Virus record (IMG/VR): IMGVR_UViG_3300031993_000003 | Source: a virus | Strand: one strand, 5' to 3' | DNA: 64,000 nt | Shown here: piece by piece, positions 11,359-43,663 of the stretch | Position numbering within the stretch: the stretch's first letter is position 1 | Layout of the letters: the number at the start of each line of letters is the position of its first letter | The notes under the pieces: model-generated | Databases searched by the model: none | The model's input: only the letters and a program-made list of their open reading frames with translations | Told to the model about the DNA's origin: nothing | Position numbers and translations under genes: made by a program

Positions 11359-11920
11359 CGCCATACTGTCCTTCATGAGGGACATGTACCGGAAGACCGG
11401 TAGCCCCGCAGTCCTCGAGGCCGCCAGGGCATATCGCCGTATCTTCATGGAGCAGGCGCTCTCGGCGTCAGCCACCAGGCAGACCCCGGCAATCGACTAC
11501 AAGGGCTTCATGCACACTGTGGCGCACGCGCCTGCAGGGACCAACCAGCCCGACGTGTGCCCAGCACAGGTCAACACCATCATCAACGGGACGTGCACCA
11601 GGGATACCGGGGAGGAGACCGCGAAGGAACACTGGGAACCTCCCGAGTTCGCCCAGTTCACCCCGGGTGAACTCAACGCGGAGCTCCTGCACGGCAGGGT
11701 CGGCCCGACCCCTACCCCGGAGAACTTCAACGACTACAACCGGAAGACCCGGGAGCAGCTCCAGAAGAACGGGAAGAAGAACCAGCAGGACAAGGCTTAC
11801 CTGGGAGTGCCCGACAGCACCATGCCCGCATGCTGCGGCTTCACCATCACCAACCCCCGGTACCAGCAGGGTGTCTACGCCGGGGATGCCGGGGGAGTTA
11901 CCGGGGGAGCGAATGGATAG
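11345..11920 (+). CDS. Hypothetical protein.
   Basis: 191-aa ORF. Confidence 0.45.
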   Translation: MARHSAILSFMRDMYRKTGSPAVLEAARAYRRIFMEQALSASATRQTPAIDYKGFMHTVAHAPAGTNQPDVCPAQVNTIINGTCTRDTGEETAKEHWEPPEFAQFTPGELNAELLHGRVGPTPTPENFNDYNRKTREQLQKNGKKNQQDKAYLGVPDSTMPACCGFTITNPRYQQGVYAGDAGGVTGGANG

Positions 11921-13334
11921 CTTGAGTGAGATACTCGGGGGACTCCGGGAGGATACCGGGTGCTACCGGGCTATAGTGGAGGCATACGGCGTCCTGTTCG
12001 AGGACGTCGCCTCTACCGCCACCCACAGGACCAAGAGGGTCATCCGGGAGATGTTTCCGGAAATGGCGGACAGATGGGACTCTATAGCGGTAGACGATAC
12101 CGGCCGTCCCATCCTGACGATGACCGGGAAGAAACAGACATATATCGAGTATTTTGAGAGAACCATCAGGAACCGCTTCTTCCATGACGGGGAGAACCAG
12201 AAGTTCGAGCCGGGTGTTGCAAGGATTGCCTACGGCGAGCTGAACCTGGAGAACCGGGGGCAGGATTCCAGGAAGCTGTCCTCCCTGAAGAAGATAGTCA
12301 AGCTGATATCCGATGGTCATGCGGAGGAATACGATTCCGACCTGAACGGACTGTCTTACTCCGGCCTGGAGGCCAGGTTCGGTACGGTCGTCCAGAAGGC
12401 CGACGACGAGCTCAAGACGGAACTTACTTCTGCCAAGTACAAGAACAGCGACTACATTATTGAACCGATACCCGACTTCGATACTGCGAAGAAGTTCAGC
12501 AAGTATACCAACCCGGATTCCCGCTGGTGCATCACTTACCTTAAGAACATGTGGGACAGCTATACTTCCGACGGACTGAACAGGGTCTACTTTGCCTACA
12601 AACCGAACTTCAAGAAAGTTAGCTGGGTAAAGGGGAAGAAGGCTCCACTGGATGAATACGGTCTTTCCCTGATTTCTATCATTGTCGACCCGTGGGAGAA
12701 CTTGAGGGCAGTCACTACCAGGTGGAACCACGACAACGGAGGCTCCGACCAGGCCATGGATGCCCGTCAACTATCGAAACTGCTCGGCGGAAACGTGTTC
12801 GAACTATGCCCGCCTCCGCCGAAACCGGAGCAGCATATCGACCGGGTAGACGAGGATTCGGTGAGGATAGGTGACCAGATTTGGATGTGCCACAACCTCC
12901 AGATGCCCGCAGACCCCGAACACGGTATCTATGTGGAAAACGGAGAGACCTACTTCACATGGGAAGCCGCCATGCGGGTGGCAAAGGAATACGGAAACGG
13001 TTGGAGACTTCCTTCCCGTGAGGACTGGAATAAGCTGTCCAGGTTCTGCGGGGGCGATTTCAAGGCTGGAACCCACCTGAAGTCTACCTCCGGTTGGGAC
13101 GGTGAGAACGGGTTCGATATCTACGGGTTTGACGGGAAGCCCTGTGGGTATTACGCTCCCGGTGATTCCAGGGTGGATTACGGTGGCAACAGCGGTTTCT
13201 TCTGGTCAGCTACACCGTATGGTACGTCGTACGCGTACTACCGTTACCTCGGCTGCCACGGCAGCTACTTCTACGAGTACTACCTTAGCAGGTCCTTCGG
13301 GTTTTCTGTTCGGCTGCTAAAGGATTCCGCTTAA
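11914..13334 (+). CDS. Protein with a C-terminal Fibrobacter-succinogenes-major-paralogous-type domain (…FGFSVRLLKDSA).
   Basis: C-terminal ~110 aa (W/G/Y-rich, ending SVRLLKD) resemble the TIGR02145-type domain that is common in Bacteroidota/Fibrobacter. The start at 11914 (MDSLSEILG…) was chosen over the overlapping upstream frame. Confidence 0.45.
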
Positions 13335-13392
13335 CCGGGTTCCGAAGCGCCCGCGGCCGGCGCAGCCCCGCGGCGGTAGGAACCCGAAATTA

Positions 13393-13415
13393 AAAAGCCC
13401 GCCATCAGGCGGGCT
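13393..13415 (+). terminator. Hairpin GCCCGCC-atcag-GCGGGC followed by a T-run; it fuses directly to the promoter 13-mer.
   Basis: Perfect 7-bp GC stem plus TTTT. Confidence 0.5.
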
Positions 13416-13427
13416 TTTGCTATATTT
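13415..13427 (+). promoter_or_regulatory. TTTGCTATATTTG promoter 13-mer.
   Basis: Exact motif, located at the left junction of the AT-rich IS607-like island. Confidence 0.55.
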
Positions 13428-13799
13428 GTTGTAGAACAGAGGAACACATATGCGGATAGAAGAAATACAGATAATGGAAAATGATAATAACGGTGTAATC
13501 AATCTTGTTCGAGACCGGTTATTCTGGCGGGCTTGGGAGAGGTCAGCCTATCTATTCAATATGCACATCATTCCATACAAGGTCCAGCATAAGTCATATA
13601 AGCAGATTAATAAGGAAATGCTATTTATTGGATTTCCCGATACTTCATTGGATAAGGTTAAACGGATATCAACTGGACAACATTTCGATATACATATTGT
13701 ATCGGAATCACATATTATTAAATGAAAATTGTTATAAACTATTGATAACTGTATAAAAATAATGTATATTTAATATAGTTATTGGTAGGAAACTCAATT

Positions 13800-14426
13800 A
13801 TGAGAGCAAAAGAAGCATTAAACCTGTTGGATGTCACAAGGGAAACTCTATGCCGTTATGTCCGTGAAGGCAAGATTAAGGTAAAACATAAATATAGCCG
13901 AACACGGTATGAATACGATGACGATTCGGTATATGCGTTCATCGGTAAGGTAGTAGATAAGAAGAACCGTGATATAGTTACCTATTCCCGTGTATCTACA
14001 CAAAACCAGAAGAAGCAACTTGAAGAGCAGAAACAACGGATATACGATTCGTGCGTAGCTCGTGGATTGATAGTCTCCAAGCAATACAGCGACATTAAGT
14101 CTGGTATGAACAGTGACCGCAAAGACTTCCAAGAGATAATTAGACGAGTAATCCAGGGCGAACTGGAACTAGTGGTCGTGGAGAACAAGGACAGACTGAT
14201 TCGTTTCGGCTTCGACTTGCTGGAACAGATTTTCAAGTTCTATGATTGTAAAATTCTTGTATTGAATGATGTGCTAGATAACAAGACATACGAACAGGAA
14301 CTCACCGAAGACCTAATCTCGATAATCCACTACTTCACGATGAAGAACTATTCTCACCGTAGAAAGCTCAATACGTTGAGAAAAGAACTAGAAAAGCAAG
14401 AAAACCCATCCAAATTGAATAAATAG
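13800..14426 (+). CDS. tnpA: IS607-type TnpA: N-terminal MerR-like HTH fused to a serine-recombinase (resolvase) catalytic domain.
   Basis: …IVTYSRVSTQNQKKQLEEQ… (catalytic Ser motif Y-x-R-V-S-T), preceded by a HTH. Confidence 0.65.
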   Translation: MRAKEALNLLDVTRETLCRYVREGKIKVKHKYSRTRYEYDDDSVYAFIGKVVDKKNRDIVTYSRVSTQNQKKQLEEQKQRIYDSCVARGLIVSKQYSDIKSGMNSDRKDFQEIIRRVIQGELELVVVENKDRLIRFGFDLLEQIFKFYDCKILVLNDVLDNKTYEQELTEDLISIIHYFTMKNYSHRRKLNTLRKELEKQENPSKLNK

Positions 14427-14474
14427 TTATAGACAACTATATAAACTTATAGATGAAATGGAATAAATATCTAT

Positions 14475-15770
14475 ATGAAGACGGTTAGACTGACGATAAG
14501 CAACAAGATAGATGTGCTGGACGACATGAGGCTGTTCAGCAGTATCGTGCGTGTTGCGTTTAACCGTTACCAGGACGGGATGGAAGAGAAGGAAGTACGA
14601 GCGTACTGCAATTCGATGTTCGACCACAACAGCTGGTTCATCCAGTCCGCCGTCAAGGAAGCTGCTGCGCTGTACAAGCTGAATGGCGAGAAGCATATCC
14701 TGTTCGGTGGAAAGAACAACCTGCACCAGTACCTTGTCGGGATTATAGACAAGACTACTTTCAAGTACCGCAGGATGTTCCCGATAGGCATCCAGGGCGA
14801 GAAACTGCATAAGGGCAATAGGCTGTTTGCCTTTGACCTTGACCATCAACGACTTACATACAAGCCCAGCAAGGACAGACACGTAGACATTCGGTTCCTT
14901 CCGATGAAGAAGAAAATCACCAGTGAAATTGCAAAGGTACAGCAACTTGTCGAACAGAACAAGATAACGGTTTCCGTCAAGTTGTCGGAAAAATATGTAT
15001 GGCTTACCTATGACGAGAGCCTAATATACAATGCGAGGTTCAAGAAGCTAGACTGTAGGCGAGTTCTCGGCATCGACATGAATCCTAACTACATCGGGCT
15101 TTCGGTAATAGAGTTCGACAAGAACGACGAGTTCAAGGTTCTCCATAAGCAAGTGTTCGATTTAAGCAAGCTGACGGGTTCTTCCGGCAAGGCGAGCACT
15201 GACAGTAAGTCCAAGTACATCACGAGCAAGCTAAGGCACGAGACGATTGCAATTGCTCACGAGATTTCCAAACTAGTAGATGTATGGAAGTGCAAGACCG
15301 TGGCTATCGAAGACTTGAGCATCAAGCCGAAAGACCAGAAGAAAGGCAAGAAACTAAACAAGCTGTGCAACAACAAATGGGAACGCCGATTGTTCGTTAC
15401 GAAGCTGAAGATGCTTGCTAACCTGCATAGATTCGATTTGGTTGAGGTCAATCCAGCGTATTCATCCATCGTAGGAAACTTTGCCTACGGTAGCGAGAAT
15501 ACGCCAGACATGGTTGCTGCCAGCATCGAAATCGGCAGACGTGCATACAAGAAATTTGAAAAGAGATGGTTCTATCCAAGATTCAATATTCAGTTCCGAG
15601 ATGAGCAATGGAAGCAAACACTCGGTCCGGTGGATGACTGGAAAGGACTATTCTCAAGAATCAAAGAAACGGGACTGAAATACCGTTTCCTGCTACGGGA
15701 CTATGTCCAGAATGCAGTCTTCAGCAAGAACTATATACAAAAGTGCTATAATATTTACACTTTTGCATAG
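14475..15770 (+). CDS. tnpB: TnpB-like RuvC-fold nuclease (OrfB of IS607/IS605).
   Basis: RuvC-I GIDMN, RuvC-II AIEDL, RuvC-III-like ENTPDMVAAS; 431 aa immediately downstream of tnpA. Confidence 0.6.
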   Translation: MKTVRLTISNKIDVLDDMRLFSSIVRVAFNRYQDGMEEKEVRAYCNSMFDHNSWFIQSAVKEAAALYKLNGEKHILFGGKNNLHQYLVGIIDKTTFKYRRMFPIGIQGEKLHKGNRLFAFDLDHQRLTYKPSKDRHVDIRFLPMKKKITSEIAKVQQLVEQNKITVSVKLSEKYVWLTYDESLIYNARFKKLDCRRVLGIDMNPNYIGLSVIEFDKNDEFKVLHKQVFDLSKLTGSSGKASTDSKSKYITSKLRHETIAIAHEISKLVDVWKCKTVAIEDLSIKPKDQKKGKKLNKLCNNKWERRLFVTKLKMLANLHRFDLVEVNPAYSSIVGNFAYGSENTPDMVAASIEIGRRAYKKFEKRWFYPRFNIQFRDEQWKQTLGPVDDWKGLFSRIKETGLKYRFLLRDYVQNAVFSKNYIQKCYNIYTFA

Positions 15771-16035
15771 TTATATATAGTTTTTGTATTTTAAAGTCTT
15801 TCATACCGAGAATACGGGAATTCCTTGATGGCACACTTGGACTGCAGTTGCACCCGAATAAGATACAGCTCCAGTCCATATATCATGGCTTCGAGTTTCT
15901 TGGAACATACATATTGCCATGGAGGAAGTATCCAGGCCGGAGGCTTCGTAAGAAATTGGCATCCGGCATCAATATGGACGACTATCATGGGGTTCTTTGC
16001 TATCTGAATGGTACTGAATTCCACAAATAGCGACT

Positions 16036-16051
16036 ATTTTTGCTATATTTG
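16036..16051 (+). promoter_or_regulatory. TTTTTGCTATATTTG promoter motif; the ATG of ligA is only 6 nt downstream, so the mRNA may be leaderless.
   Basis: Exact motif; in Bacteroides transcription starts ~7 nt after TAnnTTTG, which falls at or next to the ligA ATG. Confidence 0.55.
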
Positions 16052-16056
16052 TAGGC

Positions 16057-18168
16057 ATGATAGATTTCAAGCAATACACCGAGATGTGCGACGTCCTCAC
16101 CCAGTGGGCGAAGGAATACGCAGCAGGCACGCCCTCCGTTCCGGACGACGTATACGACAAGAACTACATCATGCTCAAGGAGTTCGAGGCGGCGAACCCG
16201 GACTTCATCCTCGATACGTCGCCTACCAGGCACGTCGAGGACGGCGCCGAGGGCTTCCGGAAGGTAAGGCACGAAATCCCGATGATTTCCATCTCCAACT
16301 CCAACGGCATCGAGGAGGCCACCGAGTGGTGCACTGCCACGATGACCAAGGCTCCCACACTGGAACTTGAATACAAGATTGACGGTCTCGGCCTTGCCCT
16401 GAAGTACAAGGACGGCCAGCTCATTGACTCAATCACCAGAGGCAAGGACAACGTGGGCGACTCTGTCTACGAGAACGCTCTCAGAGTCCGCAGAATCCCC
16501 CACAAGATTGACCTCATGGGAGACGTGGAAATCCGCGGCGAGGTGGTATGGAAGTTCGCTGACTTCGAACCAATCAATGACCAGCTCGAGGCGGACGGAA
16601 AGAAAACCTTCGCCAACCCGAGGAATGGCGCCGCCGGTACGCTCAAGATGCACGACCCGGAGGAGGTAGGCCGCCGCGGGCTCTCCTTCATCGGCTACCT
16701 CATCGTCAAGGGCAGCCCGAACATGACCCAGACCCAGGACATCGACACCCTCGAATCACTAGGCTTCGAGGTCCCCGAGCACCACACAGTCAACTCCATA
16801 CAGGACTTCGTTAACATAGCCGAATCCATGCGCGAGCGCCGGTTCGCCCAGGCATATCCCATCGACGGCGTGGTAATCAAGGTGGACAGCAAGGAACTCC
16901 AGTCCACCTTCGGCTACACGGCAAAGTCCCCCAACTTCTACCGTGCCTACAAGTTCCCCCCGGAGGAGAAGGAGACGCTCCTGCTCAACATCGAGGAATC
17001 CATCGGCATGTCCGGCGCAATCACCCCGGTAGCCGTAATCGAGCCGGTGAACCTGGCCATGACCACGGTCACCCGCTGTTCCCTCCACAACTGGGACCTA
17101 GTAGACTACCTCGGCTTGCACAAGGGCTGCCACGTGGTAATCCGGAAGGCGGGCGAGATTATCCCCGAGCTGGTCAAGTGCGTGGAGACCGGCCGTACCA
17201 AGGACGAGTACGAGGTACTCCGCACCAAGGCCGACCGCGAGCACGTAGCCCACGTAATGCCGTGGAACCCTACTACGGATGCAGAACGCCATTACGCCCG
17301 CTACACCCGTCCTTCCCACTGTCCGTATTGCGGCTCGGTGCTGAAGTGCCAGGTGAACGAATCCGGCAAGGAACTGGTTGGATGGGTATGCGACAACCCT
17401 GACTGCCGTGCGCAGCTTACCGGCAAGCTGTCCAACTTCGTCTCCCGCGAGTGCATGAACATCATGGGCGTCGGAGAGTCCATCGTCGACCAGCTCGTGG
17501 AGTCCGGAATGGTCACATGCTTCGCCGACCTGTATACGCTGAATGCGGAATCCGTTGCATCATGGTGTGGAAAGACGGAGAAGGGCGCACAGAAGATTAT
17601 CGACGCAATCCAGAAATCCAAGGGCAACTACCTGCACCAGCTCATCGAGGGGCTCTCCATCCCCGGCATAGGCCACCAGGTGTCACCGGCGATAGCCAAG
17701 TGCGTATCCGACGCGGGCGGGTTCGCAAAGTTCGTCTCGTCCAACCCGGAGGAGTCCGCGGAGTTCATCAGGGATTTCGCAATCAACGCATCCTCGTCCG
17801 GCGTATCTGACCTCCTCGCCAACAAGTTCGTCGAGTACATCACGAACAACGTGGTCCAGATTGCACGGTTCGTCCAGATGGGTATCGCCCAGACAGTCAA
17901 GGAAGTCCAGTCCGCCAAGCTCGCAGGCAAGGTCTGCATCATGACCGGTACCTTCGAGAAGCTCGACCGCGACGTGTTCAAGGACATGGTGGTAGCAAAT
18001 GGCGGTACAGTCTGCTCGTCGATTACCAAGAAATGCAACGTGGTGCTCATGGGAGACAATGCCGGCCCCTCCAAGGTCCAGAAAATCAAGGACCTTACCG
18101 CTGCAGGACAGCACATCGATGTCTACACCCCGGAAACCCTCGACCAGTTCCTGGACCTACTCAAGTGA
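16057..18168 (+). CDS. ligA: NAD+-dependent DNA ligase LigA.
   Basis: Adenylation motif EYKIDGLGLALKY (KxDG); the C-terminal tetra-Cys zinc finger CPYCGSVLKC…C…C; a C-terminal BRCT-like segment; 703 aa. Confidence 0.8.
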   Translation: MIDFKQYTEMCDVLTQWAKEYAAGTPSVPDDVYDKNYIMLKEFEAANPDFILDTSPTRHVEDGAEGFRKVRHEIPMISISNSNGIEEATEWCTATMTKAPTLELEYKIDGLGLALKYKDGQLIDSITRGKDNVGDSVYENALRVRRIPHKIDLMGDVEIRGEVVWKFADFEPINDQLEADGKKTFANPRNGAAGTLKMHDPEEVGRRGLSFIGYLIVKGSPNMTQTQDIDTLESLGFEVPEHHTVNSIQDFVNIAESMRERRFAQAYPIDGVVIKVDSKELQSTFGYTAKSPNFYRAYKFPPEEKETLLLNIEESIGMSGAITPVAVIEPVNLAMTTVTRCSLHNWDLVDYLGLHKGCHVVIRKAGEIIPELVKCVETGRTKDEYEVLRTKADREHVAHVMPWNPTTDAERHYARYTRPSHCPYCGSVLKCQVNESGKELVGWVCDNPDCRAQLTGKLSNFVSRECMNIMGVGESIVDQLVESGMVTCFADLYTLNAESVASWCGKTEKGAQKIIDAIQKSKGNYLHQLIEGLSIPGIGHQVSPAIAKCVSDAGGFAKFVSSNPEESAEFIRDFAINASSSGVSDLLANKFVEYITNNVVQIARFVQMGIAQTVKEVQSAKLAGKVCIMTGTFEKLDRDVFKDMVVANGGTVCSSITKKCNVVLMGDNAGPSKVQKIKDLTAAGQHIDVYTPETLDQFLDLLK

Positions 18169-19116: not shown

Positions 19117-19174
19117 TGCGGCGGTAATTCAGTAGGTAGAATATCTGCCTTCCAAGCAGACTGTCGCCGGTTCG
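19117..19174 (+). pseudogene. tRNA-Gly(UCC) 5' portion (acceptor 5' strand through T-loop TTCGA), interrupted by an insertion element.
   Basis: GCGGCGG-TA-ATTC/GAAT D-arm; anticodon stem TCTGC/GCAGA with loop CTTCCAA; T-stem GCCGG; the sequence then leaves the tRNA fold after TTCGA. Confidence 0.55.
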
Positions 19175-21166
19175 ACCGTTGGCTGAAATCTACTCAAACT
19201 TACCAGCAGTAAGAATTGTGTGATTTCCCATGGCCTGCTTGAACAGGCCACTGCAACGGCATTTTTCCAGGCACCTCCTTACCTTCCACATGGGCAGGCT
19301 CTTTGGCTGGAAGTACCTGTATCCGCCATCCCCTGCCAGTTCAAGCAGGTTCCCCCTTAACACGGTCGAGGTAACGCGGAATTTTATGTTTACCGAACTG
19401 TTGCGGTCTGCATTGTCCTGATGGTGGCATTCCACACAGTCGAAAGTTTCCTGGTCAGGGCGGTTACGGTCGTCTATCGCGCCGCATACCGGGCACATCT
19501 TGGAAGTATATTCCGGGTGTATCAGCGAAAGCGATTCGCCGTACTTCGGGGCGATGTGCTCGACCTCGTCCTTCAGAGATGAAAGTCCTATCCGGAGATG
19601 CAGACGGCCCAGGTTCATACCGTTCCTATCCGTCGAATCCAGCCGCCTTCCCTGGAACCCGGTCAGGTTCTCCATCACTATGTGACGGTAACCCCGCGAG
19701 TACAGGTCCTTGCACATGGCCGCTATGCGTCTTTTGTTTGACTCGTTCAGCTTCAAGGTAATGGCTTCAATGCGTTTCTTGTCCTTGTGAGAAATCTTGA
19801 ACGCATCATGTTCTTCGTCCTTAGCAAACCGGGCATTGTAGTTCTTCTGCTTCTGGTCTATTTTTAGCAGTTCGGTCTCCAGTTCCGCAACGAGTTCCTC
19901 GTCGTGTGGGATGAACTCCCCGGTGCTCAAAGCGAACATGTTGTGCTTGGAATTGACGTCTATGCCGACGGTATTTTCTTCTGTAATTTCATCGGTATTC
20001 TTGTAACGGTAACCGTCCCTTGCGAGGACTATATGGATGTCCTTTCCTCGGACAACCATCGTATAGGATGTATCTTCCCCGTTGCAGTAGCGGTTCAACG
20101 AGCGATGGTAGGCCTTGTTGTATTTGAATGGCATACACAAGGTATTCTTGCTATCACCACGGTATCCTTGGTCGAACCAATCCCATGAAAATTCGATGAA
20201 ATAGTCGAACTTTCCGGTTTCGTTACGCCTAGCATCTACGATAGGACGCTTGATACGGCTACGACCGGAAAATGTGAGCGATTCGAAGGTAATCTTGCCA
20301 CGCTTCTCGTATTCGGAGAATACAGATGTCCTTCTTGACAGCGCCAACCGCATGAGGCGGGCGAAGCCGAACTTGCGTATCTTGGCCAGTATCGTTCTAT
20401 AGAACTTCTGCTTGGATTCTACTGCGGTAGGAATAGCAGATTCAAGCCAATAAACGGTTTCTTCCTTGCCGTACCGAGCAAGCCAAGTAAGTACCTTCGT
20501 TAGTTCAGTCTTCTTGGTATGGCACTCTATGGACTTCAAGTCACCTTTCTTGTGTCCCTTGACATTTATCTTGTAGAACGAGGGAACAAGTTCCTCTACC
20601 TTGACGAACTCAATCTTCTTGCGGATTGCATCAAAGCGAAGCTGGTACGCTCGCCACACATCTTCAATAGCCTTCTTCAAGTAGTGGCTAGATAGGCGTG
20701 TATTGAATGTCGGGTTGAATAAATTGAACGCCTCGAACTTAGACATATCCTGGAAGCCGAGCATATCCGAGAAGAACACTTCCGATATGTCGTTCCTTAC
20801 TGCACGGATTTCCTCTGCTCGATGAATAATTTCGGCTCGCTTGGTGTCGGACAACAGGATAGGATAGAACGCGGCGGAGAACTGCGACTTGTACCTATCC
20901 TTCAATGTCCAACAATGATTGCTCATACAATACAGAAATGGCTCGTTAGGAACTTATTGTGAGATTCAATTCCAAACGAGCCATCATAAAGGTCTCTTAC
21001 GGAGCTTAATGAAGAATCTCACTAATTCATTAAACCTATATACATTAAGTTTATAACAATATACAAAATTTTATGCCGAATTTCAACTTAAAAATACACT
21101 AAATGCATGCAAATTTAGTTAGATTTAAGTAAGATTAGGCAGATTTTAAGTTAGCTGTGGGTAACC
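19175..21166 (-). mobile_element. TnpB-only (IS200/IS605-family, IS1341-like) insertion element of ~2 kb inserted in the T-loop of tRNA-Gly(UCC).
   Basis: tRNA 5' portion at 19117-19174 and the matching 3' portion (CCGGT-CCGCCGC) at 21167-21178; TnpB ORF between them; a TTAC tetranucleotide at the element end next to the 3' tRNA piece (minus strand). Confidence 0.5.
19190..20926 (-). CDS. tnpB: TnpB-like RuvC nuclease (578 aa) with a C-terminal zinc finger.
   Basis: RuvC-I …VGIDVNSKHN…, RuvC-II …HIVMENLTGF…, CPVCG…CVECHH zinc finger plus RuvC-III DNADRNSSVNI. Confidence 0.65.
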   Translation of the reverse strand: MSNHCWTLKDRYKSQFSAAFYPILLSDTKRAEIIHRAEEIRAVRNDISEVFFSDMLGFQDMSKFEAFNLFNPTFNTRLSSHYLKKAIEDVWRAYQLRFDAIRKKIEFVKVEELVPSFYKINVKGHKKGDLKSIECHTKKTELTKVLTWLARYGKEETVYWLESAIPTAVESKQKFYRTILAKIRKFGFARLMRLALSRRTSVFSEYEKRGKITFESLTFSGRSRIKRPIVDARRNETGKFDYFIEFSWDWFDQGYRGDSKNTLCMPFKYNKAYHRSLNRYCNGEDTSYTMVVRGKDIHIVLARDGYRYKNTDEITEENTVGIDVNSKHNMFALSTGEFIPHDEELVAELETELLKIDQKQKNYNARFAKDEEHDAFKISHKDKKRIEAITLKLNESNKRRIAAMCKDLYSRGYRHIVMENLTGFQGRRLDSTDRNGMNLGRLHLRIGLSSLKDEVEHIAPKYGESLSLIHPEYTSKMCPVCGAIDDRNRPDQETFDCVECHHQDNADRNSSVNIKFRVTSTVLRGNLLELAGDGGYRYFQPKSLPMWKVRRCLEKCRCSGLFKQAMGNHTILTAGKFE

Positions 21167-21179
21167 CCGGTCCGCCGCT
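21167..21179 (+). pseudogene. tRNA-Gly(UCC) 3' portion (T-stem 3' strand CCGGT + acceptor 3' strand CCGCCGC + discriminator).
   Basis: CCGCCGC is the exact complement of the 5' acceptor strand GCGGCGG at 19117. Confidence 0.5.
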
Positions 21180-22549: not shown

Positions 22550-23245
22550 ATGAATTACACTAAGATTTACGCAAGTATTGTCTTGCGAGCTCAGACTGAA
22601 CGAACTGAGCGGTTAGCCTTGAAGAAACAGGGCCAGTATTTCGAGAACCATCATATAATACCTCGTTGCTTAGGCGGTATCGACAATGCATCTAATATGG
22701 CGTTATTAACTGGGCGCGAACATTTTATATGTCATTGGTTGCTAGTTAAAATTTATAGGCCGAATACTGTTGAATATTCTAAAATGATTCTAGCGCTGTG
22801 GCGAATGCGCTCTGCCGGTCAAGACCATCATGGTCGATATATCAACGCTCGTACATACGAATATCTTCGTGAAGACTATGCCCATGCTATTGGTAAAATT
22901 ACGTCTGTGACTCAGCACGGTTCAAAAAATTCTCACTATGGCGCTAAATGGTACACGAATTCGTATGATGGGACTGTTATAATATCTAAAACTGCATTAG
23001 AGTTTCCTTGGGTGCTTGGTCGAAATTTATTTAAAGGGGAATCGGTTTGTCTACAAACTTCTAGACAGCATATGCGGTTGTATGCACAAAGGTTATGGAA
23101 TCAATTCCATTCCGGTGATTATACTTCATTAAGAGACTTTAAGCGAAGAGAACATATTTCTGGTGCTTTGGTGAGCCGATTATTTTTACATCATATTCCG
23201 TTATACAGTACATTAAATGCTAATGGTCGTAAAAAAGTATTGTAA
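22550..23245 (+). CDS. HNH homing endonuclease.
   Basis: HHIIPRCLGGIDNASNMALLTGREHFICH motif; located in an AT-rich island between tRNA genes. Confidence 0.7.
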   Translation: MNYTKIYASIVLRAQTERTERLALKKQGQYFENHHIIPRCLGGIDNASNMALLTGREHFICHWLLVKIYRPNTVEYSKMILALWRMRSAGQDHHGRYINARTYEYLREDYAHAIGKITSVTQHGSKNSHYGAKWYTNSYDGTVIISKTALEFPWVLGRNLFKGESVCLQTSRQHMRLYAQRLWNQFHSGDYTSLRDFKRREHISGALVSRLFLHHIPLYSTLNANGRKKVL

Positions 23246-25354: not shown

Positions 25355-26227
25355 CTATCCGGTGGGTGAAATTTTACTACGAAGCAAGGTAAGTAATTCT
25401 TCAATTTTGTTGGGGCGATAGCAATCCTTAAAATGTAGCTCAATAACTTCCCAGCCTTGCGATACTAAATAATCATGTCGTTCTTGATAATATGGCTTCA
25501 GTTGACCACCATAGTAATGTTGATTTCCGTTGACTTCAATGTCTAACTTTATATCAATAAAGGCTATGTCTAATGAATATGCATGTGACCACGATGCATC
25601 AGTATATTCACTTTCAAACTTGAATTTGTTGTCGGCCAATATCGTTTTCAGTGTTTCACATGGTGGAGATACAAACTTATCCGTGGATTTCCAGTTACAC
25701 TTCTCTGGATGTTCTTTAGCAAACTGGCGTTTAACTTCGGCTAGATGCGCCCTTTCCTCATTAGTCCATTTATGAGGGCCATGCGGTTTCTTTGTACATA
25801 ACTTATAATGGTCACGTTTCTTTCCGGTGTATTTCTCATTACAATATGGACATACACTATCTCGGTTCTTGGACTTGATAGTGTCTGGATGTTCCGCATG
25901 CCTATGTGCATATAGTTTGTTTTTTGACATGAAGATGCTATCGCAGAATGGACATTTCCACCCTTCTGGTCTGGCGAGTCGTTCACTGTGGAAATTGCAG
26001 TAATTATGTTTTATCTGCACTCTATTCGGATTAGAATGGCATGACTGTTCATGAAGCTTTAGTGTTCCTGGACGTTTGCATATCTTTCCACAATATTGAC
26101 AGTGGTATTCACCGGAGTCTGGCATTGTGTTGATTCGGTTTTGATTACATGGGCAGTGTTTTTCATGCACCATGCATGCTGATTTTACTGGTATTTCTTT
26201 TGAACAATATTTGCATTTCATACACAA
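25355..26227 (-). CDS. Homing-endonuclease-like protein: three C2H2-type zinc fingers plus a C-terminal DUF559/Vsr-like (PD-(D/E)xK) endonuclease domain.
   Basis: C..C…H..H repeats (CQYCGKICKRPGTLKLHEQSCH; CPFCDS…HRHAEH; CPYCNEKY…); C-terminus …LDIAFIDIKLDIEVNGNQHY…QERHDYLVSQGWEVIELHF; AT-rich island abutting the tRNA-Arg 3' end. Confidence 0.55.
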   Translation of the reverse strand: MCMKCKYCSKEIPVKSACMVHEKHCPCNQNRINTMPDSGEYHCQYCGKICKRPGTLKLHEQSCHSNPNRVQIKHNYCNFHSERLARPEGWKCPFCDSIFMSKNKLYAHRHAEHPDTIKSKNRDSVCPYCNEKYTGKKRDHYKLCTKKPHGPHKWTNEERAHLAEVKRQFAKEHPEKCNWKSTDKFVSPPCETLKTILADNKFKFESEYTDASWSHAYSLDIAFIDIKLDIEVNGNQHYYGGQLKPYYQERHDYLVSQGWEVIELHFKDCYRPNKIEELLTLLRSKISPTG

Positions 26228-41644: not shown

Positions 41645-41674
41645 GAGAGTTAGTCAAAGTATAGTAAAATATAC

Positions 41675-42985
41675 CTAATGACCTTTTATCGAATCCGGGA
41701 CTCTTAGCTCCGAACCATCTATCCTGAATATTCCGGTAGGCAACCAGAAGAAGCCTTCCTTCCTAGCCAGTCTGGACAACTCATCGGTACGAGGTATGGC
41801 GGGCAGCTCTAATTCGTGGTTCCTGGCGGCATTTATGTCCGCGTCAATCACGAGTCCACATAACGGGCAGATGTAGAGCTTTCCCTTCCTCGCCTTCTTG
41901 AGTACGTGGCCGCACCCGGAGCAGCGTTGAGAACGGTAGGCGTTCGACTGCGGATTTATTCGGACACCGAACTCCTCCGCGACTTGCGCCAGCCTGATGA
42001 CTATCTCCGGGTTGGACCAATGTTTAAGTTTTCGTGAAGTATTCCTTCCGTATTTGATGTTGTCAATCTTCTCCAGGCCTATTTCCTTAATGCCTGAGAA
42101 GTTCAGCCGCTTGATTGCGTAGTTGATATAGTTCCTTCTCTCGCACTGGCAGCGTTCGAATGCCTTGGAACCCTTCGTCTTGCGGCACATCTTGTCCGTT
42201 ATCGTGTCCAGGTTGACTTTCAGTTTCCTGGTAGGCTCTCCCTTCCTGGGAGCATCTAGAACCATGTCGGCCGTAGTCTGGCCGTCAGATAGGGAAATGC
42301 AGGTAAGTAAGCCCTGGTCTGCACCGACCTTCTCTCCTTCTTCCTTCTGTGCGAATTCCTTCTGCCAACGGAGCTGGATTCCGTACTCGTCGATGAGGTA
42401 CCCGTTACAGGCTTCCCACGTCCCGTCGAGATACTTCGCCATGTGTTTATGACGGCATACAGGAACGTTGAATATATCAAGACCGGTGGACCTTATCTTC
42501 AGGAATCCATAAAATTCCCCTTCGGGTGTTGGGTAGAACTCGGCACACTTGCTTGAAATCTCTATACCCGCATCCGATAGGTCGGGTTTGGAAGGGTTCC
42601 TCTCCTCTATGACTTCCCACAACCGTTCGAGATAATTGCCTTGTGCTGCTTCCTTGTCGAATACGTATAGCCTCTTGGCGTTCTTCGAGCAGATGGCGCG
42701 AAGCTTCCCGCTTAGCTGGGTAACCAGAGAACTCATCATCCTGGCAGAAAGCCAGGTATCTATCTCGAACCTGTTGTAGTCCAGGTACTTCGGAAGCTCG
42801 TACTTGAACTTGTCGGGATTGAACTCGTGCCAGCCGTCCTCTTCCTGCCATCGGTATCCGTTCGACCATATGTCGTCGCAAATCAGCTGCATCACGCGCC
42901 GCCATTCGGCAAGGAGGCGGTCTATCGACTCCCTCTTGCCGGTATTGGCGAACTTGAGCGTATGTCTGGTGGCGCGAACTATCAT
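41675..42985 (-). CDS. tnpB: TnpB-like RuvC nuclease with zinc finger.
   Basis: RuvC-I GADQG; RuvC-II LEKIDN; CSGCG…CPLCG zinc finger plus DADINAARN (RuvC-III). Confidence 0.65.
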   Translation of the reverse strand: MIVRATRHTLKFANTGKRESIDRLLAEWRRVMQLICDDIWSNGYRWQEEDGWHEFNPDKFKYELPKYLDYNRFEIDTWLSARMMSSLVTQLSGKLRAICSKNAKRLYVFDKEAAQGNYLERLWEVIEERNPSKPDLSDAGIEISSKCAEFYPTPEGEFYGFLKIRSTGLDIFNVPVCRHKHMAKYLDGTWEACNGYLIDEYGIQLRWQKEFAQKEEGEKVGADQGLLTCISLSDGQTTADMVLDAPRKGEPTRKLKVNLDTITDKMCRKTKGSKAFERCQCERRNYINYAIKRLNFSGIKEIGLEKIDNIKYGRNTSRKLKHWSNPEIVIRLAQVAEEFGVRINPQSNAYRSQRCSGCGHVLKKARKGKLYICPLCGLVIDADINAARNHELELPAIPRTDELSRLARKEGFFWLPTGIFRIDGSELRVPDSIKGH

Positions 42986-42990
42986 GGCTA

Positions 42991-43575
42991 CTAGTCTTCC
43001 GAGTTGAGTGCTTCCTTCATCTTGTTCGCCTTGTTGTGCCCCCTACGGGCTCCGTACAACCGGCAACAGAAACTGGTCACGATTGCTATCATGTCCTTGA
43101 TGATGTCCTGCTCGTTGTTGTCGTTCGGATACATCACGTCTATCGAGCAGCCGTTTCGCGAAAGCAGCCTCTCTATGTAGTTGAAGCCGAACCTGGTAAG
43201 CCGGTCCTTGTTCTCGCAGATGATTGTTGTCGGCTCCGAGTAGAGCATTTCCCAGAATTTCGGCCTGTTGTCGTTCATGCCGGAAGCAATTTCCTTGTAG
43301 ATGGCATCCACCTTGTAGCCGTTATGCGCGGCATAGTCCTTGCACCGTTCTACCTGACGGTTGAGGTCGTCCTTCTTGTCGTGACTGCTTACACGGGCAT
43401 ATATTACAATCCTGGGTCGGTCAAGTTCGGAATGGTTCGGGGTTATCGTGACGAATATGCTCTTGGTATCCGGGTCCTGGTAGGCATTGAGTATCTTCCC
43501 CATGTGGAACCAGCGGTGGGCCGTCCTGTACTTTATCCCATGCTCCTTGGCATATGTCGATAGCTTGATGTCCAT
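42991..43575 (-). CDS. tnpA: IS607-type TnpA (MerR-HTH + serine recombinase).
   Basis: …IVIYARVSSHDKKDDLNRQ… catalytic Ser motif; N-terminal HTH (YRTAHRWF). Confidence 0.65.
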   Translation of the reverse strand: MDIKLSTYAKEHGIKYRTAHRWFHMGKILNAYQDPDTKSIFVTITPNHSELDRPRIVIYARVSSHDKKDDLNRQVERCKDYAAHNGYKVDAIYKEIASGMNDNRPKFWEMLYSEPTTIICENKDRLTRFGFNYIERLLSRNGCSIDVMYPNDNNEQDIIKDMIAIVTSFCCRLYGARRGHNKANKMKEALNSED

Positions 43576-43650
43576 ATACTATCCTGTTTATATATGTTCA
43601 TGACATAAACTATGACATTTCATGAAAATAGTTGGTATGAATGAGTATTT

Positions 43651-43663
43651 TTTGCTATATTTG
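43651..43663 (+). promoter_or_regulatory. TTTGCTATATTTG promoter 13-mer.
   Basis: Exact motif. Confidence 0.5.

What the first reader, a model, noticed from the sequence alone, without database searches (positions are those of the whole stretch)
13428..16035. Two IS607-like (TnpA serine recombinase + TnpB) islands; one is flanked on both sides by the phage promoter 13-mer
The elements at 13.43-16.03 kb and 41.65-43.62 kb are AT-rich against a GC-rich background, so they appear horizontally acquired. The first lies exactly between two copies of TTTGCTATATTTG (13415 and 16039). It therefore inserted between a promoter and ligA, with a promoter copy on each side, which may explain how ligA remains expressed. 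The second ends just before the promoter at 43651. With the solo TnpB in tRNA-Gly, the window carries three TnpB nucleases.
Basis: partly seen in the sequence, partly recalled or inferred. Interest (0 to 1): 0.55.

Follow-up and report, generated by a model that had tools for sequence, protein, structure and literature searches.

The report
Insertion sequence that killed a phage DGR
The AT-rich "island" in front of the phage ligase gene is the wreck of a diversity-generating retroelement, whose middle has been replaced by a 2.1-kb IS607-type transposon. That transposon carries an unusual zinc-finger-less TnpB-like nuclease and its guide-RNA scaffold. The two flanking promoter copies are the phage's own and were not made by the insertion.

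Summary
The sequence features are real, but the island is composite.

- **Promoter 13-mer:** exact copies lie at 13416-13428 and 16039-16051. The window holds 11 exact and 4 near copies, all on the + strand, against 0.02 expected by chance.
- **The mobile element:** it spans only 13716-15793 (2,078 bp). Independent copies in other contexts share exactly this stretch.
- **Its contents:** an IS607-family serine-recombinase TnpA, a 431-aa TnpB-like protein and an ωRNA-like structure. The protein keeps an invariant RuvC D-E-D triad, has no zinc finger, and its predicted fold matches Cas12f and TnpB. The RNA structure overlaps the gene's 3' end and shows strong covariation.
- **The AT-rich flanks (13429-13715 and 15794-16038):** these are remnants of a diversity-generating retroelement (DGR). 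A close relative (L028) has, at the same place, an intact 128-aa ORF, an Avd-like gene, a template repeat and the start of a reverse transcriptase (RT). That template repeat differs from the 3' end of the upstream FISUMP gene (13156-13331) almost only at adenines.
- **What was lost:** about 1.5 kb of DGR is missing in the window. Only the last 78 RT codons remain and no template repeat is present, so the variable repeat is orphaned.
- **The promoters:** the first drives the DGR accessory genes and the second is ligA's own, conserved in relatives that lack the island.
- **The other elements:** the second IS607 island and the TnpB element that splits tRNA-Gly are both confirmed.

This is a known kind of element with a divergent, phage-enriched nuclease.

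The parts
11913..13334 (+). DGR target gene ('geneX'), with a C-terminal FISUMP / Fib_succ_major domain
   Evidence: ORF. The gene call on L013 maps to 11913-13334. Pfam PF09603 scores 56.6 bits and TIGR02145 scores 77.6 bits. Fib_succ_major/DUF1566 proteins are a known class of DGR target (PMC5758913).
13156..13331 (+). Variable repeat (VR), now orphaned
   Evidence: It is 85.8% identical to the AAC-rich template repeat of relative L028 (973-1148). Over the 192-nt alignment, 22 of 50 template adenines differ. I count only 2 non-adenine differences inside the repeat core. No second copy exists in the 64-kb window.
13393..13418 (+). Intrinsic terminator of geneX, fused to the promoter 13-mer
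   Evidence: An 11-pair stem followed by a T-run. The same architecture is present in L005 and L028.
13416..13428 (+). Promoter 13-mer of the DGR accessory operon
   Evidence: Exact match. It is present at the same place upstream of the intact 128-aa ORF in IS-free L028.
13450..13725 (+). orf91, the truncated 5' part of a 128-aa ORF; its last codons and stop come from the IS left end
   Evidence: The intact allele P0271 is 98% identical and 128 aa long. DNA homology to L028/L029 stops at window 13718.
13716..15793 (+). IS607-family insertion sequence (2,078 bp). The left end starts TA|TTAAATGAAAATT and the right end finishes ...TTTTTGTATTTTA.
   Evidence: Independent copies L016 and L017 (82% nucleotide identity, different flanks) match only 13716-15798 and 13716-15804. 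L012 shares everything to the right of 13716 but has a different left flank. Contig L014 starts at 13721. The right-end motif is conserved in copies whose protein is 63% identical (L021), and a TATATTTTA variant persists at 48-56% (L024, L047, L048).
13800..14426 (+). tnpA, a serine recombinase with an N-terminal HTH
   Evidence: NCBIfam NF033518 (IS607 family transposase) scores 153.1 bits against a cut-off of 110. Pfam Resolvase scores 72 bits, with weak HTH_17/MerR hits. PHROG 6620 'transposase'. The YSRVST motif with the catalytic Ser is present.
14475..15770 (+). TnpB-like RuvC nuclease gene (431 aa) without a zinc finger
   Evidence: The family has 975 50%-identity clusters. D201, E279 and D345 are invariant and there is no CxxC motif. 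The AlphaFold model has mean pLDDT 94.9. Foldseek top hits are Cas12f (E 9e-11), Cas12k, ISFba1 TnpB 8iaz and ISDra2 TnpB 8exa. A profile search against PDB sequences gives only weak Cas12f hits.
15596..15793 (+). ωRNA-like conserved RNA scaffold, overlapping the tnpB 3' end and the right end of the IS
   Evidence: RNAalifold predicts the same helices on 11 and on 26 sequences. On 26 sequences, 95.7% of cells are paired. There are 143 double-sided changes, against 45.5±4.9 in shuffles and 12-25 when partners are slid. The single sequence folds at -60.1 kcal/mol, z = -4.3, and reproduces the helices.
15794..15813 (+). Predicted guide segment, the first ~20 nt past the right end (inferred)
   Evidence: Sequence conservation among copies stops exactly at ...TATTTTA, and each copy continues differently. 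The guide function is inferred from the TnpB paradigm and was not tested.
15794..16030 (+). 3'-terminal remnant of the DGR reverse transcriptase gene (78 codons plus stop)
   Evidence: It is 51% identical to residues 278-318 of a 367-aa RVT_1 protein, L030 (pairwise E 3e-12). tblastn also finds phage retron-type RTs at E 5e-4. No other RT is found in the window.
16039..16051 (+). ligA's own promoter 13-mer, 5 nt upstream of the ATG
   Evidence: Exact match. The same motif sits at the same spacing before ligA in L001, L005 and L002, which have no island.
16057..18168 (+). NAD-dependent DNA ligase gene (ligA)
   Evidence: Pfam DNA_ligase_aden scores 205 bits, with OB and BRCT domains.
41675..43575 (-). 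Second IS607-type element: tnpA2 (42991-43575) and a canonical zinc-finger tnpB2 (41675-42985). Its ends are not mapped and must lie within 41645-43650.
   Evidence: NF033518 scores 174.8 bits. Pfam Cas12f1-like_TNB scores 49.8 bits and NF040570 scores 66.5 bits. TnpA1 and TnpA2 are 34% identical. No close relatives were found.
19118..21179 (-). Solo 578-aa TnpB element (ORF 19190-20926), about 1.99 kb, inserted in the T-arm of a tRNA-Gly(UCC) gene
   Evidence: Pfam TNB domain scores 51 bits. Rfam finds a partial tRNA at 19118-19168. Deleting about 19168-21157 in silico restores a 73-nt tRNA-Gly.

Best explanation
The tract 13429-16038 is a broken diversity-generating retroelement (DGR) cassette with an IS607-family insertion sequence in its middle.

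Original layout, as seen in a close relative:
- the target gene with its C-terminal variable repeat, then a terminator;
- a promoter, a 128-aa ORF, an Avd-like gene, the template repeat and the reverse transcriptase (RT);
- ligA's own promoter and ligA.

What happened (shown by comparison): a 2,078-bp IS607-type element now joins codon ~89 of the 128-aa ORF to codon ~277 of the RT. The element consists of a serine-recombinase TnpA, a zinc-finger-less TnpB-like RuvC nuclease, and an ωRNA-like scaffold at its right end. The roughly 1.5 kb in between is gone. That stretch held the ORF's 3' end, avd, the template repeat and the 5' three-quarters of the RT.

How it most likely happened (inferred): the element inserted at a TA dinucleotide. 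The DNA next to one end was then deleted. This could be an intramolecular TnpA recombination to a second TA, or recombination between two IS copies.

Consequences:
- The DGR can no longer mutagenise the target gene, so its variable repeat is frozen.
- The two flanking promoter 13-mers are the native promoters of the DGR accessory operon and of ligA. ligA expression never depended on the insertion.
- By analogy with characterised TnpB systems, the nuclease and its ωRNA would cut IS-free alleles next to the right-end flank, keeping or spreading the element among co-infecting phages. This step is inferred.
For: **IS limits**
- Copies in other contexts (L016, L017) and the variant L012 share only window 13716-15793/15804.
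- The right-end motif is conserved across copies, and each copy diverges immediately after it.

**IS-free allele**
- L028 and L029 are 96.9-98.8% identical to window 13273-13718. They continue with an intact 128-aa ORF (P0271) and a 116-aa Avd-like ORF (Pfam bAvd 18.7 bits, PHROG 'Avd protein of DGR' E 4e-4).
- They then carry an AAC-rich repeat that is 85.8% identical to window 13156-13331, followed by an RT N-terminus.

**DGR signature**
- 22 of 50 template-repeat adenines are changed, against about 2 non-adenine changes inside the repeat.
- The target is a FISUMP-domain protein, a known class of DGR target.

**RT remnant**
- Window 15794-16027 aligns to residues 278-318 of a 367-aa RVT_1 protein. 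It ends in a stop 8 nt before the ligA promoter.
- There is no template repeat and no other RT in the window.

**Native promoters**
- L028 has the first promoter without the IS.
- L001, L005 and L002 have the ligA promoter with no island.

**TnpA**
- NF033518 scores 153 bits, above the cut-off.

**Nuclease**
- The D/E/D triad is invariant in 90 diverse homologues.
- The model has pLDDT 94.9 and matches Cas12f and TnpB folds.
- An adjacent IS607 TnpA recurs in divergent members.

**ωRNA-like structure**
- Covariation lies well above the shuffled and slid controls.

**TA at junctions**
- TA is present at every mapped junction of this IS subfamily.
Against: - No contig with the complete intact cassette (RT followed by the promoter and ligA) was found. 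The right-hand native junction therefore rests on the RT remnant's frame and stop codon.
- The template repeat used for the comparison comes from a relative on a 1.3-kb contig, not from this genome.
- The Avd-like hits are below curated cut-offs. The RT remnant has no Pfam hit and no word-index homologue.
- A second template repeat and RT elsewhere in this >200-kb genome cannot be excluded.
- The order and mechanism of insertion and deletion are not observable.
- The solo copies (L007, L015, L018) do not have TA before their left ends, so the TA crossover idea is tentative.
- No target-adjacent motif (TAM) could be derived.
- The nuclease fails sequence-based TnpB models and is not significantly similar to the window's canonical TnpB by hhalign. 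RNA guidance is inferred, not shown.
Confidence: 0.8

Rival explanations
1. The whole tract 13429-16035 is one IS607-like island that inserted between a promoter and ligA. The promoter copy on each side was either duplicated by the insertion or brought in by it.
For: - Exact 13-mers (15-16 bp including neighbouring bases) directly bound the AT-rich tract.
- L001 and L005 have a single promoter and nothing between the upstream gene and ligA.
Against: - The IS ends map well inside the tract.
- Both flanks are homologous to DGR parts, and the left one is contiguous with an intact ORF in IS-free L028.
- IS607 elements make no target-site duplication (PMC13565253).
- Both promoters exist in relatives without the IS.
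Confidence: 0.04
2. Cassette exchange at promoter/terminator repeats. The DGR cassette, with or without the IS, is a promoter-bounded module. It is gained or lost by recombination between the 13-16-bp terminator-promoter repeats. This would resemble the PeSL-flanked cassettes of T4-type phages (recalled from memory). It would explain why L001 and L005 have exactly one promoter and no cassette. This concerns the origin of the cassette and is compatible with the best explanation.
For: - The cassette is precisely absent, with one promoter copy retained, in L001 and L005.
- The cassette is AT-rich: L028 has GC 0.46 and the flanks 0.37-0.45, against 0.555.
- Many promoters in this phage are fused to upstream terminators and form a repeated unit.
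Against: - No donor or circular form was seen.
- L001 and L005 are only ~72% identical in the flanking genes, so gain cannot be told from loss.
- 13-16 bp is short for homologous recombination.
- No second cassette bounded in this way was demonstrated.
Confidence: 0.25
3. The 431-aa protein is not an RNA-guided nuclease. It would instead be a RuvC-like protein with another role, such as a nuclease-dead regulator like TldR or a junction resolvase. The conserved RNA-like signal would then reflect codon constraints or TnpA binding sites.
For: - There is no zinc-finger/TNB domain.
- There is no Pfam-A hit, and NCBIfam TnpB models score below their cut-offs.
- hhalign to the canonical TnpB2 is not significant.
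- Bacterial RuvC also appears among the fold matches.
Against: - The D/E/D triad is invariant across 90 homologues at 29-46% identity, which argues against a dead regulator.
- The full-length fold match is to Cas12f, Cas12k and TnpB, not only to the RuvC core.
- The structured region has 24 pairs with compensatory changes, including pairs between coding and non-coding positions. It ends exactly at the transposon end.
- Loss of the zinc finger is documented for some TnpB branches (PMC10691335).
Confidence: 0.1
4. Assembly artefact. The IS/DGR junctions are chimeric joins made by a metagenome assembler across repeats.
For: - L012 and the window disagree to the left of 13716.
- Contig L014 breaks at 13721. 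Both are typical of repeat boundaries.
- VR/TR repeats also confuse assemblers, and L028 starts inside such a repeat.
Against: - The same 13716 and 15793 junctions occur in contigs from several samples and sources: L013 plus three similar places, JGI contig L014, and the window.
- Both junctions fall at the ends defined by unrelated copies.
- The truncated ORF and the RT remnant are what a real deletion would leave.
Confidence: 0.03

Closest known systems
IS607 family insertion sequences (IS607 of H. pylori, IS1535, ISFba1)
   Same: - Serine-recombinase TnpA with an N-terminal HTH, followed in the same orientation by a TnpB-type gene.
- No terminal inverted repeats and no target duplication.
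- A guide-RNA scaffold at the right end.
- Many solo-tnpB derivatives.
- The IS607 TnpB structure 8iaz (ISFba1) is among the fold matches.
   Different: - The ends are TA...TA rather than the usual GG (review PMC13565253).
- The TnpB partner lacks the zinc-finger/TNB module and escapes the Pfam and NCBIfam TnpB models.
- There is no match to the RAGATH-18 or any other Rfam ωRNA family.
- Copies are found mostly on large phage contigs.
TnpB / OMEGA nucleases and miniature Cas12f
   Same: - Size of about 430 aa and the RuvC D-E-D triad.
- Overall fold (Foldseek E 1e-10 to 1e-5).
- A structured RNA overlapping the 3' end of the gene, ending at the transposon boundary and followed by copy-specific sequence.
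   Different: - Only about 13 residues separate the '...NPAYSS' strand from the RuvC-III Asp. Canonical TnpB (for example the window's TnpB2) has a ~30-residue CxxC...CxxC insert there.
- Sequence similarity to canonical TnpB is at noise level.
- Cleavage, TAM and guide length are untested.
Zinc-finger-less TnpB clade RIIIr-4 (Altae-Tran et al. 2023, PMC10691335)
   Same: - It lacks the C4 zinc finger.
- The paper reports it as represented in viruses.
   Different: - RIIIr-4 has His in place of the RuvC-III Asp, and includes MazE/RHH-associated members.
- The present family keeps an invariant Asp (D345) and associates with serine recombinases.
- Placement in that tree was not tested.
Phage DGRs with C-type-lectin / FISUMP (Fib_succ_major, DUF1566) targets: BPP-1 type, 'category d' of Wu et al. 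2018
   Same: - The target gene has its variable repeat at the extreme 3' end.
- Template/variable repeat differences are adenine-specific.
- The accessory Avd-like gene, template repeat and RT lie downstream.
   Different: In this genome only the variable repeat, the first accessory ORF fragment and the last 78 RT codons survive. The element is inactivated by an IS-associated deletion.

Membership tests
IS607 family | Transposase is a serine recombinase with an N-terminal MerR-like HTH | tested here: met
   NF033518 scores 153.1 bits (cut-off 110) for TnpA1 and 174.8 bits for TnpA2. Pfam Resolvase scores 72 and 71 bits. HTH_17/MerR hits at residues 7-51 are sub-threshold.
IS607 family | No terminal inverted repeats and no target-site duplication | tested here: met
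   The left and right ends are not inverted copies of each other. The flanks of the window copy, L012, L016 and L017 share nothing except a possible TA. The shared 7-8-mers between the ends are not above chance.
IS607 family | Element ends in GG (true of most members) | tested here: not met
   The ends read TA|TTAAATG... and ...GTATTTTA|. This feature is not universal in the family (PMC13565253).
IS607 family | Mobility: the same unit occurs in different genomic contexts | tested here: met
   L016 and L017 hold one nearly identical element in two different contexts. It is 82% identical in nucleotides to the window's element. Empty sites are seen in L028/L029.
TnpB / OMEGA RNA-guided nucleases | Split RuvC domain with the catalytic D, E, D | tested here: met
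   D201, E279 and D345 are invariant in 90 homologues. An RNase-H-like core is present in the model.
TnpB / OMEGA RNA-guided nucleases | C4 zinc-finger (TNB) module between RuvC-II and RuvC-III | tested here: not met
   There is no CxxC motif in the protein or in the family consensus. There is no PF07282 hit. Loss of this module is documented in some TnpB branches.
TnpB / OMEGA RNA-guided nucleases | Passes curated sequence models (Pfam OrfB_IS605 / Cas12f1-like_TNB; NCBIfam guided_TnpB) | tested here: not met
   No Pfam-A hit. TIGR01766 scores 22.4 bits against a cut-off of 32. The only precomputed family is PF27229 SSO2105_N.
TnpB / OMEGA RNA-guided nucleases | Overall TnpB/Cas12f fold (WED, REC, RuvC) | tested here: met
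   Model pLDDT 94.9. Foldseek finds AsCas12f at E 9e-11 (TM 0.47), Cas12k, ISFba1 TnpB and ISDra2 TnpB, over 390-510 aligned columns.
TnpB / OMEGA RNA-guided nucleases | Conserved structured RNA overlapping the 3' end of the gene, ending at the transposon end, followed by variable guide sequence | tested here: met
   45-48 pairs, 94-96% of cells paired, and 23-24 pairs with compensatory changes. Both kinds of control fall far below these values. Conservation stops at ...TATTTTA.
TnpB / OMEGA RNA-guided nucleases | TAM-dependent, guide-dependent DNA cleavage | not testable with these tools
   No consensus is visible upstream of the left ends. This needs biochemistry.
Diversity-generating retroelement | Template/variable repeat pair differing almost only at template adenines | tested here: met
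   The variable repeat is window 13156-13331 and the template repeat is from relative L028. Of 50 template adenines 22 are changed, against about 2 non-adenine changes inside the repeat. The template repeat itself is absent from the window.
Diversity-generating retroelement | DGR-type reverse transcriptase next to the template repeat | tested here: inconclusive
   Only a 78-codon C-terminal remnant is left in the window. L028 shows an RT N-terminus after the template repeat (pairwise E 3e-4 to L031 RT). No full-length copy of this RT was recovered.
Diversity-generating retroelement | Accessory Avd-like four-helix-bundle gene | tested here: inconclusive
   It is absent from the window. The 116-aa ORF of L028 gives sub-threshold hits to Pfam bAvd (18.7 bits against a cut-off of 40) and to PHROG 3206 'Avd protein of DGR' (E 4e-4).

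The most novel reading that the evidence does not exclude
The zinc-finger-less, D-E-D-intact TnpB-like family and its ~200-nt ωRNA may form an OMEGA lineage specialised for large phages. It would spread by homing between co-infecting genomes. With its TnpA it would repeatedly remodel those genomes through end-anchored deletions, here destroying the phage's own DGR.

Observations that leave this open:
- 102 relatives were found in IMG/VR, often several per 200-550-kb contig, against 8 loci in 185,579 species genomes.
- The L012 variant is a second rearrangement anchored at the same IS end.
Probability: 0.3. Interest if true: 0.55.

Novelty: new member of a known kind. Interest (0 to 1): 0.38.

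Why it matters
**For annotating this phage**
- The 'island' should be read as a dead DGR plus an IS. The FISUMP-domain gene is a former hypervariable (probably receptor-binding) gene whose variable repeat is now frozen.
- It is a clear natural example of one selfish element disabling a phage's diversification machinery.

**More generally**
- The element carries a compact 431-aa TnpB-type nuclease that standard Pfam and NCBIfam TnpB models miss.
- It has an intact catalytic triad, no zinc finger, a high-confidence structural model and an ωRNA scaffold supported by covariation.
- It is abundant in large rumen and gut phages. That makes it a well-defined candidate for testing whether the zinc-finger/TNB module is dispensable for RNA-guided cleavage.

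None of this is a new kind of system.

Tried and rejected
**Searches that found nothing useful**
- megablast of 11-19 kb against INPHARED phages: no match.
- phmmer of the 431-aa protein against PDB sequences: nothing. The family profile gives only weak Cas12f hits.
- Rfam at E≤1 on 13.0-16.5 kb, and at gathering score on the whole window: no ωRNA, RAGATH-18 or intron family. Only chance leader hits at the terminator, plus tRNAs. An IStron (group I intron) reading is therefore not supported.
- orf91 and the RT remnant in IMG/VR: no relatives.
- The RT remnant in the 5.8-billion-protein index: nothing.
- The Avd-like ORF in JGI metagenomes: nothing.
- The RT remnant in JGI metagenomes: only two distant RTs.
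- As a result, the intact cassette joined to ligA was not recovered.

**Ideas tested and dropped**
- orf91 and the RT remnant as two halves of one interrupted gene. Rejected because the reading frames do not join, and L028 shows that avd, the template repeat and most of the RT once lay between them.
- The RT remnant as a group II intron relic inserted after the terminator. Rejected in favour of a DGR RT because of the TR/VR pair.
- Membership of clade RIIIr-4. Not supported, because the RuvC-III residue is Asp, not His.
- Subterminal repeat units shared by the left and right ends. Not above chance.

**Left unresolved or unavailable**
- The ends of island 2: flanking-gene and TnpB2 searches found no close relatives. 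Only an analogy-based guess is given.
- The full 90-sequence alignment was too diverse for pattern searches.
- The afdb50 fold library was unavailable.

Full report
**1. Checking the observation**

The 13-mer TTTGCTATATTTG is strongly over-represented. The window has 11 exact and 4 one-mismatch copies, all on the + strand, against 0.02 expected. Exact copies lie at 13416-13428 and 16039-16051.

The tract between them is AT-rich, with GC 0.35-0.48 against a window mean of 0.555. It contains three ORFs:
- a 91-codon ORF at 13450-13725;
- a serine-recombinase ORF at 13782/13800-14426;
- a 431-codon ORF at 14475-15770.

The recombinase passes the curated NCBIfam model for IS607 transposases, scoring 153 bits against a cut-off of 110.

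The second island (41675-43575, minus strand) has an IS607 TnpA (175 bits) and a canonical zinc-finger TnpB. Its GC of 0.509 is only slightly below background.

The third TnpB (578 aa, 19190-20926, minus strand) does split a tRNA-Gly(UCC) gene. Rfam sees the 5' part. Removing about 1.99 kb in silico restores a 73-nt tRNA-Gly for ARAGORN.

**2. Where the first element really begins and ends**

Several lines of evidence define the mobile unit.
- Proteins 81-90% identical to the 431-aa product are numerous.
- Two full copies in unrelated contexts (L016, L017) match the window only from 13716 to 15798 and 15804.
- L012 is a contig of the same phage lineage, 99.98% identical from 13716 rightwards. 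It has a completely different sequence to the left of 13716.
- A JGI contig (L014) starts at 13721.
- All four full copies start TA|TTAAATGAAAATT.
- The close copies end ...TTTTTGTATTTTA and diverge from each other immediately afterwards. The motif persists at 63% protein identity, and as a TATATTTTA variant down to about 48%.

The mobile unit is therefore 13716-15793, 2,078 bp. The 287 bp on its left (GC 0.37) and the 245 bp on its right (GC 0.45) are something else.

**3. What the flanks are**

*Right flank.* It encodes, in one frame and down to a stop at 16028-16030, a peptide with the ...LHPNKIQ...GFEFLG... signature.
- The peptide aligns to residues 278-318 of a 367-aa RVT_1 protein. Identity is 51% and the pairwise E-value is 3e-12.
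- It also matches retron-type RTs of phages more weakly.

*Left flank.* It is the 5' part of an ORF that exists intact (128 aa, 98% identical) on two short contigs, L028 and L029. L028 is 96.9% identical to window 13273-13718. From that point it reads:
- the end of the upstream gene, the same terminator and the same 13-mer promoter;
- the intact 128-aa ORF;
- a 116-aa ORF with weak hits to Avd families;
- a 176-nt AAC-rich stretch that is 85.8% identical to window 13156-13331, the 3' end of the upstream gene;
- the N-terminus of an RT.

Over the 192-nt alignment of that stretch with the window, 22 of 50 adenines differ. I count only about two differences at other bases inside the repeat itself. 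This is the adenine-specific template-repeat/variable-repeat signature of a diversity-generating retroelement (DGR).

The upstream gene (11913-13334) has a FISUMP/Fib_succ_major domain, a documented class of DGR target (PMC5758913).

The window contains no template repeat and no other RT.

**4. Reconstruction**

The ancestral arrangement was, in order:
- the target gene with its variable repeat, then a terminator;
- a promoter, the 128-aa ORF, avd, the template repeat and the RT;
- a second promoter and ligA.

In the window, the IS joins codon ~89 of the 128-aa ORF to codon ~277 of the RT. About 1.5 kb of DGR is missing.

The left junction matches the intact allele to the base. Homology runs to 13718 and overlaps the IS terminus by the trinucleotide TAT. 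A TA lies at both junctions, and also at the L012, L016 and L017 left junctions.

That pattern fits a serine-recombinase crossover at TA, followed by an intramolecular deletion to a second TA. Recombination between two IS copies would give the same product. This step is inferred. The solo copies do not show TA before their left ends, so the TA rule is tentative.

L012 is either a second rearrangement anchored at the same IS end or an assembler join across an IS repeat. I could not decide between these.

**5. The promoters**

The left 13-mer is fused to the terminator of the target gene. It precedes the intact accessory ORF in IS-free L028.

The right 13-mer lies 5 nt before the ligA ATG. In L001, L005 (exact) and L002 (one mismatch) it sits at the same spacing before ligA. 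L001 and L005 have nothing between the FISUMP gene and ligA, and L002 has a different upstream gene.

Both promoters therefore predate the IS, and ligA expression needs no special explanation. IS607 elements make no target duplications (PMC13565253).

The exact absence of the whole cassette in L001 and L005, with one promoter copy left, would fit gain or loss of the DGR cassette by recombination between promoter repeats. At ~72% identity the direction cannot be told, and I rate this only as a possibility.

**6. The 431-aa protein**

By sequence it is not recognisable as TnpB:
- It has no Pfam-A hit.
- It falls below the NCBIfam cut-offs.
- hhalign to the window's canonical TnpB gives E 0.23.

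Other evidence places it in the TnpB/Cas12f superfamily:
- Its family is large, with 975 clusters at 50% identity.
- D201, E279 and D345 are invariant, in GIDxNPN, xEDL and PDxxAASIEIxRR contexts, and there is no CxxC motif.
- The AlphaFold model is confident, with pLDDT 94.9.
- The model matches Cas12f (E 9e-11), Cas12k, the IS607-type ISFba1 TnpB and ISDra2 TnpB over nearly its full length.
- An adjacent IS607 TnpA recurs in divergent members: L025, L027 and 9 of 79 viral loci.

Loss of the zinc finger in some TnpB branches is known (PMC10691335). The named zinc-finger-less clade RIIIr-4 has His at RuvC-III, whereas this family keeps Asp. Placement in that tree is open.

**7. ωRNA**

The last ~200 nt of the gene plus the 23 nt up to the right end form a conserved multi-helix structure. 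RNAalifold predicts the same helices from 11 and from 26 sequences.

| Measure (26 sequences) | Observed | Shuffled | Partners slid |
|---|---|---|---|
| Cells paired | 95.7% | 83.2 ± 0.6% | 34-44% |
| Cells with changes on both sides | 143 | 45.5 ± 4.9 | 12-25 |

- One 9-13-bp helix pairs coding positions with the non-coding right end.
- The window's own sequence folds at -60.1 kcal/mol (z = -4.3) into the same helices.
- Conservation stops at ...TATTTTA, so the guide would be 15794 onwards (AAGTCTTTCATACC...), which lies inside the former RT gene.
- No Rfam family matches.
- RNA-guided cleavage, the TAM and homing are inferred from characterised TnpB systems (PMC8612924; PMC13565253) and were not tested here.

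**8. Distribution**

Pattern-based searches found 102 relatives in IMG/VR. Most lie on 50-550-kb viral contigs, often with several copies per contig. The same kind of search found only 8 loci in one-genome-per-species bacterial and archaeal contigs, all from gut MAGs and mostly from ruminants.

The search patterns were not identical in the two runs, so the contrast is indicative only. That TnpB genes are frequent in phages is already in the literature (PMC12607003).

**9. Verdict**

The promoter-flanking idea, however, is an accident of where a DGR cassette sat.

This is a new member of known kinds: an IS607 family element and a TnpB/OMEGA nuclease inside a degraded phage DGR. Two aspects are moderately interesting:
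- an IS-associated deletion that kills a DGR;
- a well-supported, zinc-finger-less, phage-enriched TnpB lineage with a defined ωRNA.

Noticed in passing
window 19118-21179: A ~1.99-kb solo TnpB element (578-aa ORF, 19190-20926, minus strand) interrupts a tRNA-Gly(UCC) gene in its T-arm. Joining the two halves in silico restores a 73-nt tRNA. The TnpB stop lies about 20 nt or less from the junction with the tRNA 5' half, so its guide would read into the tRNA gene.
   Followed up: partly
window 22550-23245 (+) and 25355-26227 (-): The AT-rich islands inside the 19-tRNA array are free-standing endonuclease genes. The first is a homing endonuclease (PHROG 655, 130.8 bits). The second is a zinc-finger protein with weak DUF559/RAP-type endonuclease hits. 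Together with three TnpB elements, the window is dense in selfish elements.
   Followed up: partly
window 16039, 19098, 28985; L005 7983; L002 7983: Several copies of the promoter 13-mer lie exactly 5 nt before an ATG, which suggests leaderless mRNAs. The motif contains TAnnTTTG, which I recall as the Bacteroidota -7 element. Many copies are fused to the T-run of an upstream terminator hairpin (13416, 28985, 40879, 47758), forming a repeated terminator-promoter unit.
   Followed up: partly
L012 1-5243 versus window 13716: L012 is a 195-kb contig of the same phage lineage. It is 99.98% identical to the window from the IS left end rightwards. To the left it carries polB, Thy1, AAA, Y07B and DUF6225 genes that are absent from the window. 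This is either a second IS-anchored rearrangement or an assembler join across an IS repeat.
   Followed up: partly
window 41665-41674 and 43618-43630 (minus-strand element): After the tnpB2 stop, the second IS reads GTATATTTTA, resembling the right-end motif of the first IS. TA+TTTTCATGAAATG upstream of tnpA2 resembles the first IS's left end. IS2 may therefore span about 41665-43630. This rests on analogy only.
   Followed up: partly
L007-L011, L015, L018 (upstream of the tnpB-like gene): Solo copies keep a left-end-like sequence (TTAACTCGAA...TATTGAA...). In place of tnpA they have a ~270-nt non-coding stretch, with a 32-codon ORF called in some. These look like TnpA-deleted derivatives that retain both ends.
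   Followed up: no
L021-L023 (contig JAFYKO010000122.1) and several IMG/VR contigs: Single contigs carry three or four diverged copies (59-66% identical) of the zinc-finger-less tnpB-like gene. An example is IMGVR_UViG_3300031998_000006, with four copies. This suggests long-term residence and diversification within large phage genomes.
   Followed up: no
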